NCBI RefSeq assembly: GCF_009914755.1
Contig: NC_060944.1
DNA: 64,000 nucleotides
Reading direction: 5' to 3' (one strand)
Source: the human T2T-CHM13v2.0 reference genome, Homo sapiens
Each line of letters starts with the position of its first letter. The stretch's first letter is position 1. The notes under the pieces are model-generated. The model saw only the letters and a program-made list of their open reading frames with translations, was not told where the DNA came from and made no database searches. Below are positions 5,548 through 44,439 of this stretch, piece by piece. Made by a program: the position numbers and the translations under genes.

Positions 5548-6005
<458 letters not shown>

Positions 6006-16926: not shown

Positions 16927-19169
16927 ATAGATATTCAGGAACAAGGACATATGCAGGAGCTGCATTTTAGGAAGCTAAGTCCAGCAGTTTATGTAATATG
17001 CACTAAGGGGAGGGGGTGCTGGACACCTGGAGAAGATCAAAGAAGGATGGAGGCACTTGCAGTAATCCAAGTGTGAAGGCAGAGCCTCGAGTCAGGTCTT
17101 GTAGAAGCAGAGCCAGAGAGAGGGGTGTGGGTGCCCATGACTGGAGGGAGGACTCAGGAGGAAGAGACGGAGGGAAGCAGAACAAGTCAGGGAAGGAGTG
17201 AGATGGCCTCATATCCGCTGCAGTCACACCTCAGCCTGGCCCCGCTGGGGGCTCTGGAGCAGGGGCTGCACTGTGGCATTGATCCACCTTGACTCACAGG
17301 CACCATGTTTGTAATGTGGCTATTTCCAGCCAGCACACACAACAGCTGGGGGTGTGACCACTCAGTAAAATGAATTGGGCAGGGCACCTGCAGAGTTATA
17401 ATACATCAACCCTGGAACAATACACACCCCTTCAAATTTACTGACAGGCCAATTTTCAAGCCAAAAATACAGTCCTCAAAAGGGTGTCAGTGGCTGGCCA
17501 AGGGAGGTATTAGTGGTGTTAGAAGGAGAAAAGGAATCAATCCCTAGAGAAGATGCTACTTCTTCAGGGTCTGATGATTTCATTTGCAAGGATTTTTATT
17601 GGTGTTTTTTCTAAGCAAAGTTTACTGGAAAATACTAAAAGAGACCCATGGCAGGGACTGGAAAGGGAAGAGGAAGAAGTGACTAAGCTGATGTTTTACG
17701 CATGACTGACTGGGACGATAACAGTATCAGAACAGAAAGGACCACATTCAAGTCTTCTTTTCTGTTTCTCAGATGTTCACTAGAGCCATATCTGACCAAC
17801 CAAGTTCCTTCAGGAGGGACTCAATCCTGAGATCGTCAATTCATCTTTCTCTCACAATAGCTTCATTAAAAACCCCACAATTCAATGCTGACAAATCCCC
17901 ATTACTTCTCATTATAAATCTTAAAACCATAAGAATTAGCGTCTTCCTTACTACATAAACTTCCAGACCTCAAATCTCACCTTTTTTGGGTAAGGGTAAG
18001 CTATTTGTTGACATTTGCACAAACTTTTGCCTGGCAGAAAATTTTTAAATAATTTCTAAAGAATCATTCAAATAAAATGCCAGACCCAGGAAGAAAGAAC
18101 CATTTCACTCACCAACAACAATAACGTCTCCCTCAGCCATCTATCCACACACGTCCAGGCACATCCCTTTTTGGTTTGGAACTGGTCAGGTGTGCACTGT
18201 GAAGGCATGACAAGTTGCTTCAGGAAAAGAACGATCAGGTGCACAGGCTGAGGCAGGCAGACAGGCTCTTATCTCTATCCCCAGTAGATCCATCACAGGG
18301 CATAAGAACAGCATAGCTCTTTGAGTAACTGGTTTCTGTGTAAGCAATATATGACATTTCACAGACATTAGGCTCCCTCTGGGAATTCTTCTTCTGCATG
18401 GCTCCTTTACAAAACGAGATCCTCTTCAAGACTGGTTGGTGCATCTTGGTCAATAAGAAGAACATCAGCTCTATCATCATCTAACCCTTGAGGGTTTTCA
18501 TTTAAATTATTGATTACTACCCACTATTGTAAAACAGCCTTACTATATCTTGAGTAAAATGCCACTTTTACAACCCTTGGTCTCTACTTTATATTTTTAT
18601 TATGAGCTTTTCAGATCCTCCTGATATGGATTTAGCTTACAATGGTCAATGAAAAACAATCCAAACAACCAACACGTATGAATAAAGACAAAACAAAAAA
18701 ATTTAGAACCCAGAAGTCATTTGGCTTTGACTCTGTCCAATGCCAGCTGAGTCCATTTTTCTTGTCCTATTTTCTCTGCTAAATGAGCCCCCAAAACTCG
18801 TTCCAGAGAAGTGAATAAAATGCATGACTCAGGATTCCCATCTCATTTATCTCCTGCCTCATGGAACCAGAAGCCCCTTTTGTCCTCCATCAATCCCTGT
18901 TTAAATAATATTCCCACCTGCAATAAACTCTTTCTTCAGTCTCCACCAAAGGGCCAGCCCGTTGCATGCACCAACCTTCACTGAGGGGTTCGGGGTCTGA
19001 GAAGTGACTGGCTTTGCCCTTCTATGCATGCTTGCTTTATTACTTAAGGTTATGACTTAATGCTACTTAATGAAAACCCTGGCTGGCGGGTCTGCAGAGC
19101 AATGCTTCAGAAAGGGCTCTGGATAGATAATCACCATTTGCCAGAGCCCCTCAGCATTCCCAGTGCCTC

Positions 19170-19540
<371 letters not shown>

Positions 19541-20248
19541 TGATCAAGGAGTTCATTCTTAGGTCAGGGAATCCATTCTGAGGTCAGGAAGTCCATTCTG
19601 AGTTCAGAAAGTTCATTCTGAGGTCAGAGAGTTCATTCCTAGGTCAGGGAGTCCATTCTTAGGTCGGGGAATCCATTCTGAGGTCAGGGAGTTCATTCTG
19701 AGTTCAGAGAGTTCATTCTGAGGTCAGAGAGTCCATTCTGAGGTCAGGGAGTCCATTCTGAGGTCAGGGAGTTCATTCTGAGGTCGGGGAGTTCATTCTG
19801 AGGTCAAGGGTCCATTCTGATGGCAGAAAGTTCATTCTTAAGTAAAGAAGTTCATTCTGAGGTCAGGCAGTTCATTCCTAGGTCAGGAAGTTCCTGTTTA
19901 GGTTGGGGAGTCTATTATTAGGTCAGGGGATTCATGCTTGGGTCAGGAAGTTTATTCTTAGGTTGAAGAGTCTATTCTTAGGTTAGGGAATCCATTATTG
20001 CTTCGGGAGTTCATTCTCAGGTTGGAGGTTCATTCTTAGGTGGGGGATTTATTCTTAGGTCAGGGGGTCCATTCTGAGGTCAGAGAGTCTATTCTGAGGT
20101 CAGGGAATCCATTCTGAGGTCAGAAAGTTCATTCTTAGGCCCAGGAATTCATTCTGAGGTCAGAGAGTTTATTCTAATGTTGGGGAGTCCATCCTGAGGT
20201 GGGGGGGGGTCCTATTCTTAGGTCAGGGGGTCCATTCTGAGATCAGGA
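19541..20248 (+). repeat. Minisatellite, 20-bp unit, consensus AGGTCAGGGAGTTCATTCTG, about 35 copies
   Basis: Exact 20-bp periodicity visible at 19561-19800; more degenerate copies continue to about 20248. Confidence 0.95.
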
Positions 20249-20399
20249 AGCTCTAACCTAAAACAGTCTTTAGCTGGAATCCCAGTGTGGCCACTTAGTA
20301 GCTGAGTGGTCTTGAGTAAGTCAGGACCTCCAGGTCCACATGATGATCCCACCAGGTAGGCTCATTCCCTGGGCAAATCTCACTACTCAGCACCTGCTC

Positions 20400-20760
20400 T
20401 GTAGCAGAGATCCTGAGAGTGCCCATGTGTGGTGGGTGCTCAGTGTCCTCTTCAGATTCTGCTCCAAGGCCAGGGTACCCCTTCCACACTGGTGGCTGAG
20501 CGCCTTCTGCATCCTCACCAAACCCCCCGCTGGTCTAATGAGCAGCCTATGGAAGGGACACGGGGAACCCTTGCTTCAACTCTGCAGGTTTCCAAAGCTC
20601 CAAGCTCCCCAGGGGCCAGTGGAGGCCTCTGTTGCAGCAGCATCAAAGCCCCACTGCTCTCTTACCCTTCCCAGGTGGGACTCCCAAGATCCCCTCCCCA
20701 ACGAACCCCTACATGCAAATCTCCATCTCAGGGTCTGTTTCTAGGGGACTCAACCTGAGA
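20400..20760 (+). mobile_element. LTR16-like (ERVL) LTR 3' part
   Basis: Ends 'catgcaaatctccatctcagggtctgtttctaggggactcaacctgagac', the characteristic LTR16 terminus. Confidence 0.6.
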
Positions 20761-20840
20761 CGTACTTCATAATGTTGCTGCAATCATCTAGGACAGAATA
20801 ATCATAAATAGCAAAGCTCTGAAAAATGTTAAAACGTAAG

Positions 20841-20853
20841 TAGTAGCAGTAGT

Positions 20854-20897
<44 letters not shown>

Positions 20898-20915
20898 CAG
20901 CAGTAGTAGTAGTAG
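20841..20915 (+). repeat. Interrupted trinucleotide repeat (TAG)2 CAG (TAG)2 (CAG)12 (TAG)2 (CAG)2 (TAG)4
   Basis: Read directly: 25 in-phase YAG triplets; pure CAG run at 20856-20891. Confidence 0.97.
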
Positions 20916-21366
20916 TATTTTGTTATTGTCAACATTCTCATCATGAGGGTCTTATGGCCTGGACTCTGGCCTGTGGGTCTCAACCCTCCCATGGCCTCCT
21001 GCAACCATCTCTCCCCTACCCCTCCATAGCACATAGCCTTATAGATTAAAATGTTCCTAATGGCCCCCAAACTGGTTGTGGCTCCCCCAGTGCTTGGGGG
21101 ATTTCAGAGGGGCTGGGTAACAGTTTGGCTTCTGCAGCCATTTCTGAATTTCACTTTTGGTTTGTTCATGCTGTGCTGATGCTTCAGGAGTTGACCACAA
21201 AGTAGCCACCAGTCACCAAAGTGGCACAGGCTGGCCTGAGGGTCATGAGCCGACCCACTGGGCCATGAGTAACAGAGGCAAGCTGGCTACTTGGCTTCCC
21301 CTCACATTTCAAACCCGTTAAGCCAGGCAGGGGTGTGGGCACGCTGAAAGAACGTTCTTGTTCTCA

Positions 21367-32165: not shown

Positions 32166-34054
32166 CTTGCTCCAGTTCTCTCCTCTGGTCACATGACCTT
32201 GACCTCTGCTTCATCCTCTGTCTGTGCTCATGGCCTCAGTTATTCCTGCCTTCTCAGAATCCCCCCTGCTTCCTTTGGGAACAGCTCCTCCACATTACTT
32301 CTTTTGAGAAACTTCCTCCCCAGGTGTTTTTGGCAGGACTGTCCCTCAAGCCACCCATCCCTCCTGGGCAGCAGAGGGGTGGCACATGACTGAAGTTGGG
32401 CCAATCCAACTCTCTCCTGAGAATCTGACTTTAGTGGAGAATCCCAGGTTCTAGACACTGGTCACAGCTCTGTCAGTCCAACTCAGCCCCTGAGGCATCC
32501 ATTGCCCAGTTCTTGTTCCCAGACTAAAAGAGCCACCTTACCAGTGCCTTCTGTAGACTCTGCAAGCATCCTGCAGTCTTCCATTAAATACTGATAAATA
32601 TGTGTATTTAGTTCCAATTCCACATAGAGGCTTTGCAGCCGTCTGACCTCTCCCACAATTCCAGATGGCTGGTGGCTGAGCTGGGAAGAGGGCTGAGATT
32701 CAAACCAGAAATGATCCCTACAACCTTCTCAGACAAACGGCATCATTGCAGGCTGGACAAATGCTCCAGATGGTGCCTCCTTTATACACTGCCATTTAAT
32801 GTCTACAGTGTCCACACCCCCATTTTACAGAGGCAGTAACTGAAGTACAGAGAAGGCAGAGCTCAGATTTCACAAAACTCTGTCTAACCCCATAGGGTTT
32901 GCTCCTTCGGTAAACCTCAGAATCTCCTCAAAAGTCAGGTCCCCAACTGCCCTCCTGGAAAAGCAGCCCCAGCTCACTCTGAACTGGCAGTGGCTCAGAT
33001 GATCCTGCTAAGGCTGAGAGACGGAAAAGAAAGTGTTTTTGGTGGCAGTACATTAGAGTCACAACTGCTTTGCTGTCACCGTAGATTGACTGGCTCCAAG
33101 TCATGCAGCCTCTCATGGCAAACAAATGCTGTTAAGATCCTGCGCCAGAGAACAACATTGACAATGAGGGAAAAGATCAATCCTCTATTTACAGACTTAA
33201 AGATCCTTAAATCAAGCCTGTCATCAGAGCTGCCAAGGACTCTGCCTGTGTGACCAGATGTGCCCTTCCTCCCTGGACGGACTCCACGCTGCACATGGGA
33301 CCACTGGGCTCATCTTCAGAAGGGCCCATGCAATTTGGTGACAAATCCCACCAATTTGTCAATACACTTCTTCCAAGTTTAAAAGCCAGTCATTGGAGGG
33401 ATTGTTGGCAAATAAGGAAGTTGCTATAGATGCAAAATGTCAAAGCATGATTCTGCTTTCCCAACGCTTTCTGGATGCTACTTCATGCTCGGCCCCATAT
33501 GAAGCACTTAGCATGCATTGTTTCGTTCGCTCTTCACGTCAGCCCGAGGAGATGGATATGACCATTGCCCCTATTCTACAGAGGAGGCAGCTGAGCCTCA
33601 AAGAGGCTAACTCACTTGCCACAGCCACCCTGCTAATGCTTAAGCCACACTAGTCAGGTTGCAAATAACTTTATGCTTATGCCCAATTTTAAATAGTACA
33701 AAAGATAAAAGGATTTCCTGGCTCTTGAAACTGAAAAGTCCAAACTTGAGGGATGATTTGACTCCCAACATAGTCATCAAGAGCCTGATTTCTTCCCAGC
33801 TTTCCTGTCTGCCTCATCAAGGGTCTACCACTCAGGGCAGCAAGATGGCTGCAACAGTGCTATCCACACACTGTGAGTCCAGAAGGGAAGGGAGAAAAAT
33901 CTCCTTCCCCAGAATCCTTCAGCAAACACCTCCAGGCTCAGTGGCCCTAATTGGGCCTCCGACCACCCTCAGCTGTGCTCAACGCATACAGTGCCAGTCG
34001 TGTGTCCTTTGGAACCAGGGATGTCTCTGACCTCCCCAAACTCCAGGATCATAG

Positions 34055-43660: not shown

Positions 43661-43990
43661 CGGCCGACGTCATTACCCTGCGACCGCTCAGGACACTTCT
43701 GAGGACTCTTTTGACAGCTAGTAATCGCGCGGTGGCGCGACCACGTGACTCCGGCGCCCTAGCCCCGCCCTCCGTCTCCAAGGAGCCCTGGAAGGAGCTA
43801 TACCAGCGGCTCCAGAAGGCGGGGAGAGGCGGGGCCGGACTCCGGGACAGCCAATGGGCGAGGAGTGCCGCCCAGCCTGACCCACCGGCCGCTCCCTCAC
43901 GAGCCTGTGGGCGTGCGCCGGCTGTGCAGGTGAGGGGCAGCGAGGGCGCCTAGTGGGCAGGGCGCCGGCGTTGCGCGTGCGTCAGTGTTC
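43300..43990. promoter_or_regulatory. CpG island promoter
   Basis: CpG-dense; GACGTCA (~43666), E-box CACGTGAC (43742), GC boxes (~43762, 43828), CCAAT (43851). Confidence 0.8.
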
Positions 43991-44439
43991 TTCCTTGTGC
44001 AGTTTAGAATTTGATACATTTCTTTCCAGTCTATTTCTATAGATTTGTTTTCAAATCACATCAGACCCTATGTAAAATAGTGTACCGTCTTTACTCATTA
44101 TAACATGGTGAGCATTTCCCCAAGCTATTACACATATTTTTAAACATTGTTTTAATGACCGGCATAATAATCCAGTGCTTGGATATATCAAATTCTTCGG
44201 CCATCTCCTTATAGGTGAGATTGTTTCCAAAGTTTCACTAATGTAAGTGCACTGCAGTGAACGCCCTTACGTAACAATTGTTCACTCCCGTGTACTTTTC
44301 TCGTGCAGAGTTCTACAGCATGAAACACTATATTTAACTTTGTCAGGTTGATGTTTATCAGTGGTTTATTATTGTTTTTATAGTATTCCATTGTCAGTGA
44401 AGTATGCCATTCACACTGTCAAGTGAATTGTCTATTTGT

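What the first reader, a model, noticed from the sequence alone, without database searches (positions are those of the whole stretch)
19541..20248. Minisatellite that is a tandem array of alternating DR3 (VDR/PXR-type) and DR5 (RAR-type) nuclear-receptor elements
Seen: the 20-bp unit parses exactly as AGGTCA-n3-AGTTCA-n5 (6+3+6+5). Each good unit is therefore a DR3, and each junction between units is a DR5. Perfect RGKTCA-n3-AGTTCA DR3s start at 19601, 19621, 19681, 19701, 19761, 19860 and 20117. Perfect AGTTCA-n5-RGKTCA DR5s start at 19550, 19610, 19630, 19690, 19710, 19790, 19849 and 19869. Established: RXR-VDR (also PXR/CAR) binds DR3 and RXR-RAR binds DR5. Inference: this could be a copy-number-variable, multi-site vitamin D/retinoic acid response element in which the two receptors compete for shared half-sites. 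It lies about 16 kb from the NXT1 promoter. As I recall, it is also within a few hundred kb of THBD/CD93, which respond to vitamin D or retinoic acid; these genes are outside this window. Low read mappability could hide it in ChIP-seq.
Basis: partly seen in the sequence, partly recalled or inferred. Interest (0 to 1): 0.8.

Follow-up and report, generated by a model that had tools for sequence, protein, structure and literature searches.

The report
Minisatellite of vitamin D receptor sites

Summary
Window 19544-20247 is a minisatellite of 35.2 copies of a 20-bp unit. Its consensus reads AGGTCA-n3-AGTTCA-n5. The 64-kb window has no other DR3 or DR5. The four-half-site DR3-n5-DR3 composite occurs only here in the 3.1-Gb assembly.

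Heikkinen 2011 (PMC3241659) reports that the strongest ligand-dependent VDR site of the THBD locus in THP-1 cells lies 285 kb upstream of the THBD start and contains eight DR3-type elements. ChIP-qPCR confirmed VDR and RXR there. I place THBD 284.4-285.3 kb from the array. A 2014 supplement lists two VDR-peak DR3 15-mers that occur in the window only inside the array. Reads were mapped uniquely, so mappability did not hide the site.

Untested here:
- RAR binding at the DR5 sites
- competition between the two receptors
- copy-number variation
- the target gene

Neither paper calls the site a tandem repeat.

The parts
19544..20247 (+). Minisatellite: 35.2 copies of a 20-bp unit with consensus AGGTCA-GGG-AGTTCA-TTCTG. 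All half-sites run head to tail on the + strand.
   Evidence: TRF: period 20, 75% matches, score 583; 34 half-sites on +, 0 on -; unit-by-unit parse, 36 units.
19561..19879 (+). Best-preserved block of 16 units, mean 89.7% identity to the consensus. It holds 6 of the 7 perfect DR3s and 7 of the 8 perfect DR5s (the eighth starts at 19550). Ten of the eleven units from 19581 to 19800 are within one mismatch of a DR3. This is the likely seat of the published 'eight distinct DR3-type REs'.
   Evidence: The 15-mers AGGTCAGAGAGTTCA (19621) and AGGTCAGGGAGTCCA (19641, 19741) are listed under VDR peaks in the supplement of PMC4005760.
19880..20056 (+). Degenerate middle block of 9 units, mean 78.3% identity. 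No perfect DR3 or DR5.
20057..20247 (+). Distal block of 9 units, mean 85.0% identity. One perfect DR3, at 20117.
19528..19535 (+). ATCACCTG in the upstream flank. It is collinear with the Alu sense segment that continues into the unit's core CTGAGGTCAGG(G)AGTT. This is a possible trace of an Alu-like seed and weak evidence only.
   Evidence: unit against Alu: 15 of 15 bases with one gap; 1 of 2000 unit shuffles scores as high; flank 8-mer matches Alu positions 69-76 and the unit 11-mer matches Alu 74-84; no longer Alu homology in either flank.
19163..19495 (-). Neighbouring Alu in the opposite orientation to the unit's Alu-like core. Context only, not part of the array.
   Evidence: poly-T at 19171-19193 and the Alu body read directly; hub table (masked stretch 19163-19495).
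18113..20877 (-). Exon of the predicted lncRNA LOC105372571 that contains the whole array. The model's 5' end lies inside an (AGC)n repeat.
   Evidence: Hub annotation table; (AGC repeat at 20839-20917).

Best explanation
The feature is a locus-specific minisatellite of about 36 units of 20 bp. Its unit is a near-optimal DR3-type vitamin D response element, with 5'-AGGTCA for RXR, a 3-nt spacer and AGTTCA-3' for VDR.

Amplifying that unit made a head-to-tail row of VDR-RXR docking sites. There are 7 perfect sites and 18 within one mismatch, spaced 20 bp (about two helical turns) apart.

In monocytic cells the row is occupied by VDR and RXR. It is partly occupied before ligand and strongly more so within 40 min of 1,25(OH)2D3. 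It lies in open chromatin and gains H3K27 acetylation with ligand. So it acts as a ligand-responsive multi-site VDR platform, most likely a distal enhancer, in the THBD-CD93-NXT1 domain.

Shown here or in print: the repeat anatomy, its uniqueness in the genome, and VDR/RXR occupancy at this position.

Inferred: that several units are occupied at once, that the element activates a gene, and which gene that is. THBD at 285 kb is the original authors' proposal.

The DR5 junctions follow arithmetically from the 20-bp period. Using them for RXR-RAR would exclude DR3 use of the same half-sites, and nothing shows that this happens.
For: Anatomy:
- The array and its motifs are described.
- The unit is found nowhere else in the assembly: 9 of 9 matches with two or fewer mismatches lie in the array.
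- The DR3-n5-DR3 composite has 2 genome-wide hits, both in the array, against 1 hit for the reversed-pattern control.

Identity with the published site:
- VDR and RXR ChIP-qPCR at the arrowed sites increased with ligand.
- THBD was located with PF09064 at C20:23107669-23107770 (-) with its ORF start at about 23,108,985-23,109,153. That puts the array (C20:23,393,544-23,394,247) 284.4-285.3 kb upstream.
- The window covers about 265-329 kb upstream of THBD and has no DR3 outside the array.
- Seuter 2013, PMC3592476 (sections 10 and 13 and passages read), says the major peak is 'close to the NXT1 gene', is present unstimulated and 'strongly increases after 40 min'. All five VDR peaks have FAIRE-seq peaks, and ligand raised H3K27ac at this site.
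- Tuoresmaki 2014, PMC4005760, supplement file 2, lists chr20:23314713 AGGTCAGAGAGTTCA and chr20:23314854 AGGTCAGGGAGTCCA at HOMER score 9.18. In the window these 15-mers occur only at 19621 and at 19641/19741. A third listed 15-mer anchors the hg19-to-window offset to within 5 bp.

Motif competence:
- The identical 15-mer AGGTCAgagAGTTCA is reported as a reporter-active VDRE at -35 kb of mouse Klotho (review PMC7839824, passage read).
- PMC3726591 states that the strong VDR site of THBD is shared by monocytes, lymphoblastoids and colon cells (passage read; its Fig. S2B was not seen, so the site's identity is not verified).
Against: - No reporter, deletion or looping data for this element were found in the texts read. 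'Looping' occurs only in a reference of PMC3592476.
- The nearest gene, NXT1, rises only 1.1-fold, and GZF1 and NAPB do not respond.
- Nutrients 2020, PMC7230898 (passages and tables read), assigns THBD and CD93 to a super-enhancer 80 and 40 kb away and does not mention the 285-kb site.
- Basal H3K27ac at the site is low.
- Within the array, half-site positions are no better kept than spacers. Mean agreement with the consensus is about 0.80 over 12 half-site columns against about 0.78 over 8 spacer columns. The best-kept stretch is the spacer TTCT, and position 13 (T/C) is only 53% kept. So there is no sign of selection for binding.
- 29 of 36 units lack a perfect DR3.
- The hub's list shows no RefSeq functional element at the array.
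- I could not read the peak tables or ChIP primer tables (PDF, old xls or too large). The identity with the published peak therefore rests on distance, motif count and the two listed 15-mers, not on printed peak coordinates.
Confidence: 0.8

Rival explanations
1. Neutral minisatellite acting as a binding sink. Slippage or unequal exchange amplified a unit that happens to carry two half-sites. VDR-RXR binds because of the motif multiplicity, but occupancy has no effect on any gene.
For: - Chance alone gives the DR3/DR5 register in about 4 of 100,000 random 20-mers (78 of 2,000,000). One such array among the many minisatellites of a human genome is therefore not surprising, and exactly one locus is found.
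- Half-sites are not better preserved than spacers.
- The nearest genes barely respond.
- A later analysis credits THBD and CD93 to other enhancers.
- No RefSeq functional element lies on the array (hub table).
Against: - The site is in open chromatin (FAIRE) and gains H3K27ac with ligand.
- It is the strongest ligand-dependent VDR site in a locus whose gene THBD is induced up to 17-fold.
- The site is said to be shared by three cell types, although the identity of that site is not verified.
Confidence: 0.35
2. Dual VDR/RAR switch. RXR-RAR occupies the DR5 junctions (AGTTCA-n5-AGGTCA) in retinoid-responsive cells and competes with RXR-VDR for the same half-sites, so the array integrates the two hormones.
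For: - There are 8 perfect DR5s and 15 within one mismatch in the array, and none elsewhere in the window.
- The 3-4-5 spacing rule of Umesono 1991 is cited in PMC3241659.
- Each half-site is shared between one DR3 and one DR5, so exclusivity follows from the geometry (inference).
Against: - No report of RAR at this site was found. The search for NXT1 + retinoic acid + RAR + ChIP-seq gave 1 paper, which is unrelated.
- The DR5 is an arithmetic by-product of 20 - 15 = 5.
- Any pair of half-sites in a 20-bp unit gives DRn plus DR(8-n), and most such spacings could be matched to some receptor after the fact.
Confidence: 0.15
3. ChIP artefact of a repeat. The read pile-up arises because the cell line carries more units than the reference, or because repeat fragments are recovered non-specifically.
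For: - Tandem repeats are a known source of spurious peaks (general knowledge).
- The copy number of the array in THP-1 is unknown.
Against: - An IgG control track was used, and fold enrichment was computed over IgG.
- The signal rises within 40 min of ligand, which copy number cannot explain.
- Independent ChIP-qPCR for both VDR and RXR confirmed it.
- Reads were mapped uniquely.
- The motif is the optimal VDR-RXR site.
Confidence: 0.03

Closest known systems
[quoted passage not shown] 2011, PMC3241659; Seuter et al. 2013, PMC3592476)
   Same: Same place and same motifs. The distance to THBD is 284.4-285.3 kb. It is the only DR3 cluster in the window. The 15-mers listed under VDR peaks occur only in the array. 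VDR and RXR are bound and ligand increases binding.
   Different: Neither paper describes the site as a tandem repeat. 'Tandem' occurs 0 times in PMC3241659, and the single 'repeat' in PMC3592476 is a gene name. Three points are added here: the 35-copy minisatellite structure, the interleaved DR5 register, and genome-wide uniqueness.
Alu-borne nuclear-receptor elements: the AluSx VDRE of CAMP (Gombart 2009, PMC2716374) and Alu DR2 retinoic acid response elements (Laperriere 2007, PMC1785376). Only search listings and the start of each abstract were seen.
   Same: These are hormone response elements made of RGKTCA direct repeats and supplied by repetitive DNA. The unit's core CTGAGGTCAGG(G)AGTT equals the Alu DR2 core plus one spacer base.
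   Different: Those are single elements inside dispersed SINE copies. This is a tandem amplification of one 20-bp unit at a single locus. Alu ancestry of the unit is only suggested: 1 of 2000 shuffles scores as high, and the flanks show no wider Alu homology.
Tandem-repeat or VNTR enhancers, e.g. 'MORC3 represses a tandem repeat enhancer to regulate interferon' (PMC13373173) and a VNTR with an embedded enhancer between IL10RB and IFNAR1 (PMC3762855). Listings and abstract starts only.
   Same: In these cases a repeated unit carries a transcription-factor site, so unit number can set the number of sites.
   Different: Enhancer activity and copy-number polymorphism are not shown for this array, and the factor here is a ligand-activated nuclear receptor heterodimer.
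Mouse Klotho -35 kb VDRE AGGTCAgagAGTTCA (reported in the review PMC7839824, passage read)
   Same: The 15-mer is identical to the unit at 19621-19635. It is reported to be as potent as the rat osteocalcin VDRE in a reporter assay.
   Different: It is a single site in another gene and species. It shows that the motif is competent, not that this locus is active.

Membership tests
Minisatellite / VNTR | Head-to-tail array of units of roughly 10-100 bp | tested here: met
   period 20, 35.2 copies, 75% matches; 36 units parsed.
Minisatellite / VNTR | Copy number varies among individuals | not testable with these tools
   Only one assembly is held. Indirect evidence comes from hg19 positions of listed 15-mers against the window, which give offsets of 23295092 (at 19621) and 23295097 (at 43934). 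That is a net difference of 5 bp or less between hg19 and CHM13 downstream of 19621. The two array entries are 141 bp apart in hg19 but 120 or 20 bp apart in CHM13. This hints at a small sequence difference inside the array and is not proven. The search NXT1 + VNTR returned 0 papers.
DR3-type vitamin D response element (RXR-VDR) | Two RGKTCA half-sites as a direct repeat with a 3-nt spacer | tested here: met
   7 perfect sites; 18 sites within one mismatch.
DR3-type vitamin D response element (RXR-VDR) | Occupied by VDR and RXR in cells, with binding increased by 1,25(OH)2D3 | tested here: met
   No experiment was run here. The published ChIP-seq and ChIP-qPCR were mapped to the array by distance, by the absence of any other DR3 in the window, and by the listed 15-mers. 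Peak coordinate tables could not be read.
DR3-type vitamin D response element (RXR-VDR) | Confers ligand-dependent transcription on a reporter or target gene | not tested
   No such assay for this element appears in the texts read. An identical 15-mer is active in the mouse Klotho context.
DR5-type retinoic acid response element (RXR-RAR) | Two RGKTCA half-sites as a direct repeat with a 5-nt spacer | tested here: met
   8 perfect sites; 15 sites within one mismatch.
DR5-type retinoic acid response element (RXR-RAR) | RAR-RXR occupancy and a retinoid-dependent response | not testable with these tools
   No ChIP data can be reached. The search gave 1 unrelated paper.
Distal enhancer | Open chromatin and activating histone marks | tested here: inconclusive
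   From print: there is a FAIRE-seq peak at all five VDR peaks, and basal H3K27ac is low but rises with ligand at this site. No RefSeq functional element lies on the array (hub table).
Distal enhancer | Removal or silencing changes expression of a target gene, or there is physical contact with a promoter | not tested
   None was found in the texts read. A later paper credits other enhancers.
Alu-derived minisatellite | Unit homologous to a segment of Alu | tested here: inconclusive
   CTGAGGTCA-GGAGTT, 15 of 15 bases with one gap, and 1 of 2000 unit shuffles scores as high. Both sequences are half-site pairs, so the likeness may be convergent.
Alu-derived minisatellite | Flanks continue the Alu sequence on both sides of the amplified segment | tested here: not met
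   only an 8-mer (ATCACCTG, 19528-19535) is collinear upstream. All flank matches have E of 0.9 or more, and there is no downstream continuation.

The most novel reading that the evidence does not exclude
The dominant VDR site of the THBD locus is a mutable minisatellite. Its unit number and unit sequence (AGTTCA against AGTCCA at position 13, which is only 53% kept) would differ between people. That would change how many VDR-RXR dimers the locus can load.

THBD induction is used as a biomarker to sort people into vitamin D responders and non-responders. Alleles of this array could therefore be a cis-genetic cause of personal vitamin D responsiveness. Retinoids could add to this through the interleaved DR5 register, and the element may be primate-specific if its seed was an Alu DR2 that gained one spacer base.
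Probability: 0.1. Interest if true: 0.7.

Novelty: already known. Interest (0 to 1): 0.42.

Why it matters
The site is already established as one of the clearest ligand-dependent VDR-RXR binding regions in human monocytes. Recognising it as a 35-unit minisatellite, and the only DR3-n5-DR3 composite in the assembly, adds three things:
- It explains why one peak holds 'eight distinct DR3-type REs'.
- It gives a natural system for asking how the number of homotypic sites sets nuclear-receptor occupancy and enhancer output.
- It turns the question of person-to-person differences in vitamin D response at THBD/CD93 into a genotyping problem: array length and unit variants against induction.

It also shows that repeat-borne receptor sites need not be lost to mappability when the units have diverged.

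Tried and rejected
- Other copies of the array in the genome: the DNA search found only the locus itself. The unit pattern with two or fewer mismatches gave 9 of 9 hits inside the array. So it is not a dispersed repeat family or the internal repeat of a transposon.
- Printed peak coordinates and ChIP-qPCR primers: the supplements of PMC3592476 and PMC3241659 are PDF or old xls. Table S1 of PMC4005760 is too large. The readable supplement of PMC3726591 holds only expression columns. These unseen files could confirm or refute the exact peak position and the cell types.
- Literature on the array as a tandem repeat. A general search on minisatellite, nuclear receptor, half-site and tandem repeat gave 85 papers, and none of the 20 listed is on this locus. 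NXT1 + VNTR gave 0 papers. VDR/DR3/tandem repeat/ChIP-seq/VNTR/minisatellite gave 61 papers, and none of the 20 listed is relevant. NXT1 + VDR + vitamin D gave 2 papers, of which only PMC3592476 is relevant. The unit's 15- to 17-mers as text gave 1 paper, on the mouse Klotho VDRE.
- RAR evidence: 1 unrelated paper.
- Alu origin: the unit core matches but the flanks show no extended homology, so this is kept only as a weak lead.
- Selection on half-sites: not seen.
- Promoter-like or CpG-rich sequence next to the array: GC is 0.44-0.58 and there is no island. The lncRNA model's 5' end sits in an (AGC)n run.
- Conservation in other primates or mammals: no such genomes are reachable with these tools.

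Full report
**1. The observation**

Tandem Repeats Finder reports a single array at 19544-20247: period 20, 35.2 copies, 75% matches, 2% indels, consensus TCAGGGAGTTCATTCTGAGG.

A regex scan reproduces every coordinate in the finding:
- Seven RGKTCA-n3-AGTTCA sites: 19601, 19621, 19681, 19701, 19761, 19860, 20117.
- Eight AGTTCA-n5-RGKTCA sites: 19550, 19610, 19630, 19690, 19710, 19790, 19849, 19869.
- All 34 half-sites are on the + strand and none on the - strand.

Shuffles of the 708 bases give a mean of 0.77 half-sites and essentially no DR3 or DR5. Outside the array the 64-kb window holds no DR3 and no DR5 of this type. It holds only one DR0 and two DR2s, which lie in Alu cores. Half-site density is 48 per kb inside against 2.4 per kb outside.

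**2. Anatomy**

A wrap-around alignment parses 36 units. They fall into three blocks:

| Block | Units | Mean identity to consensus |
|---|---|---|
| 19561-19879 | 16 | 89.7% |
| 19880-20056 | 9 | 78.3% |
| 20057-20239 | 9 | 85.0% |

Only 7 units keep both half-sites perfect. 18 positions are within one mismatch of a DR3 and 15 within one mismatch of a DR5. Ten of the eleven units from 19581 to 19800 are within one mismatch of a DR3.

The commonest defect is T to C at unit position 13 (AGTTCA to AGTCCA), where T is kept in only 53% of rows. Half-site columns are no better kept than spacer columns (about 0.80 against 0.78), and the best-kept stretch is the spacer TTCT. The array itself therefore shows no sign of selection for receptor binding.

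The many motifs result from amplifying one unit, not from independent events. A random circular 20-mer has the DR3/DR5 register in 78 of 2,000,000 trials.

**3. Uniqueness and origin**

The unit is not part of a dispersed family.
- A DNA search of the 3.1-Gb assembly finds only the locus itself.
- All 9 matches to the unit pattern with two or fewer mismatches lie in the array.
- The four-half-site composite RGKTCA-n3-RGKTCA-n5-RGKTCA-n3-RGKTCA occurs twice in the genome, both times here. The reversed-pattern control gives one hit.

The unit core CTGAGGTCAGG(G)AGTT equals the Alu DR2 core with one extra spacer base. Only 1 of 2000 unit shuffles scores as well against the neighbouring Alu. An ATCACCTG at 19528-19535 is collinear with the preceding Alu bases.

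Against Alu ancestry, neither flank shows longer Alu homology, and the adjacent Alu (19163-19495) is in the opposite orientation. Alu ancestry is a weak lead and not a result.

**4. What it is: the published dominant VDR site of the THBD locus**

Heikkinen et al. 2011 (PMC3241659; passages read) ran VDR ChIP-seq in THP-1 cells with uniquely mapped reads (bowtie -m 1, hg19). [quoted passage not shown] VDR and RXR ChIP-qPCR on independent chromatin rose with ligand.

Seuter et al. 2013 (PMC3592476; sections 10 and 13 and passages read) add the following:
- The major peak is 'close to the NXT1 gene'.
- It is present before ligand and 'strongly increases after 40 min'.
- It coincides with a FAIRE-seq peak.
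- It has low basal H3K27ac that rises with ligand.

I located THBD with Pfam PF09064 at C20:23107669-23107770 on the - strand. Its open frame starts at about C20:23,108,985-23,109,153. The 575-residue length used for the lower bound is recalled, not from a call. The array, at C20:23,393,544-23,394,247, therefore lies 284.4-285.3 kb upstream.

The window spans roughly 265-329 kb upstream of THBD and contains no DR3 outside the array.

Independently, supplement file 2 of Tuoresmaki et al. 2014 (PMC4005760; part 1 and the matching passages read) lists DR3 sequences under VDR peaks pooled from six cell models. It lists:
- chr20:23314713 AGGTCAGAGAGTTCA
- chr20:23314854 AGGTCAGGGAGTCCA

Both have HOMER score 9.18. 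In the window these 15-mers occur only at 19621 and at 19641/19741. A third listed 15-mer, at window 43934, gives the same hg19-to-window offset to within 5 bp.

I put the identity of array and published peak at about 0.9. The printed peak tables and primer lists were unreadable, so this remains an inference from distance, motif count and sequence.

**5. How it most likely works**

- Each good unit is 5'-AGGTCA-n3-AGTTCA-3'. This is the polarity and sequence preferred by RXR (5') and VDR (3'), which is established knowledge. The 3-4-5 rule paper is cited.
- One unit (19621) is identical to a reporter-active VDRE of mouse Klotho (review PMC7839824).
- The 2011 paper notes that VDR-occupied DR3s tolerate variation at positions 4, 12 and 13. 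The 2014 table scores the AGTCCA variant at the default threshold. So more than the 7 perfect units probably count, which fits 'eight' within 100 bp either side of a summit.
- Units repeat every 20 bp, about two helical turns, so dimers could line up on one face. That is inference.
- The DR5 junctions follow from 20 - 15 = 5. RXR-RAR use of a DR5 would exclude DR3 use of both units it touches. No data show RAR here.

**6. What remains open, and evidence against a regulatory role**

- No reporter, deletion or looping test of this element appears in the texts read.
- NXT1, 16-17 kb away, rises 1.1-fold, while GZF1 and NAPB do not respond. THBD rises up to 17.4-fold and CD93 1.6-fold.
- A 2020 paper from the same laboratory (PMC7230898) assigns THBD and CD93 to a super-enhancer 80 and 40 kb from their starts and does not use the 285-kb site.
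- PMC3726591 says the strong VDR site of THBD is shared by monocytes, lymphoblastoids and colon cells, but the figure that would show which site was not readable.
- The hub's RefSeq functional-element list has nothing on the array.
- A binding sink without regulatory output therefore remains a serious rival, at about 0.35.

**7. Copy-number variability**

This is not testable here. The hg19 anchors imply a net length difference of 5 bp or less between hg19 and CHM13 from 19621 to 43934, so these two haplotypes do not differ by whole units downstream of 19621. The 141-bp spacing of the two listed 15-mers in hg19, against 120 or 20 bp in CHM13, hints at a small difference inside the array or at an off-by-one in the table.

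**8. Comparison and novelty**

The VDR-bound, multi-DR3 region is already in print. Neither paper calls it a tandem repeat: 'tandem' occurs 0 times, and the only 'repeat' is a gene name. My searches found no paper that does.

Related known kinds are Alu-borne VDREs and DR2 RAREs (PMC2716374 and PMC1785376; listings only) and tandem-repeat enhancers (PMC13373173 and PMC3762855; listings only).

The increment here is the minisatellite structure, its uniqueness in the genome, and the resulting testable idea that array alleles affect personal vitamin D responsiveness at THBD.

**9. Verdict**

- Observation: confirmed.
- Interpretation: partly supported. VDR/RXR binding is supported and was already known. 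The RAR, competition and VNTR claims are untested. The mappability worry is refuted.
- Novelty: already known, with a modest structural addition.
- Interest: 0.42.

Noticed in passing
window 20839-20917: There is an (AGC)n / (AGTAGCAGC)n microsatellite here. The 5' end of the predicted lncRNA LOC105372571 (20877, - strand, hub table) falls inside it. The model's start may therefore be an alignment artefact rather than a true start site.
   Followed up: partly
window 43934-43948: GGGGCAGCGAGGGCG is listed as the DR3-type sequence under another VDR ChIP-seq peak (hg19 chr20:23339031, minimal HOMER score 8) in the supplement of PMC4005760. It occurs once in the window. It lies between NXT1 and GZF1, next to LINC01431 and inside the RefSeq silencer 43813-44002 of the hub table.
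   Followed up: partly
window 5765 and 45629 (- strand Alu cores at 5767 and 45631): These are the only RGKTCA DR2 elements in the window, and they are the classical Alu DR2 cores. One DR0 lies at 32194.
   Followed up: no
window 19621-19775 against hg19 chr20:23314713-23314868: Two 15-mers that are 141 bp apart in the hg19-based table are 120 or 20 bp apart in CHM13. At the equivalent of +140, CHM13 reads AGTTCA where the table reads AGTCCA. This may be an allelic difference that makes or breaks a perfect DR3, or an offset in the table.
   Followed up: partly
window 19388-19420 and 19528-19560: The neighbouring inverted Alu carries the reverse complement of the unit's core about 130 bp upstream of the array. 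The array start and the Alu therefore form a short inverted repeat. Whether a template switch on this Alu seeded the array is speculation.
   Followed up: no
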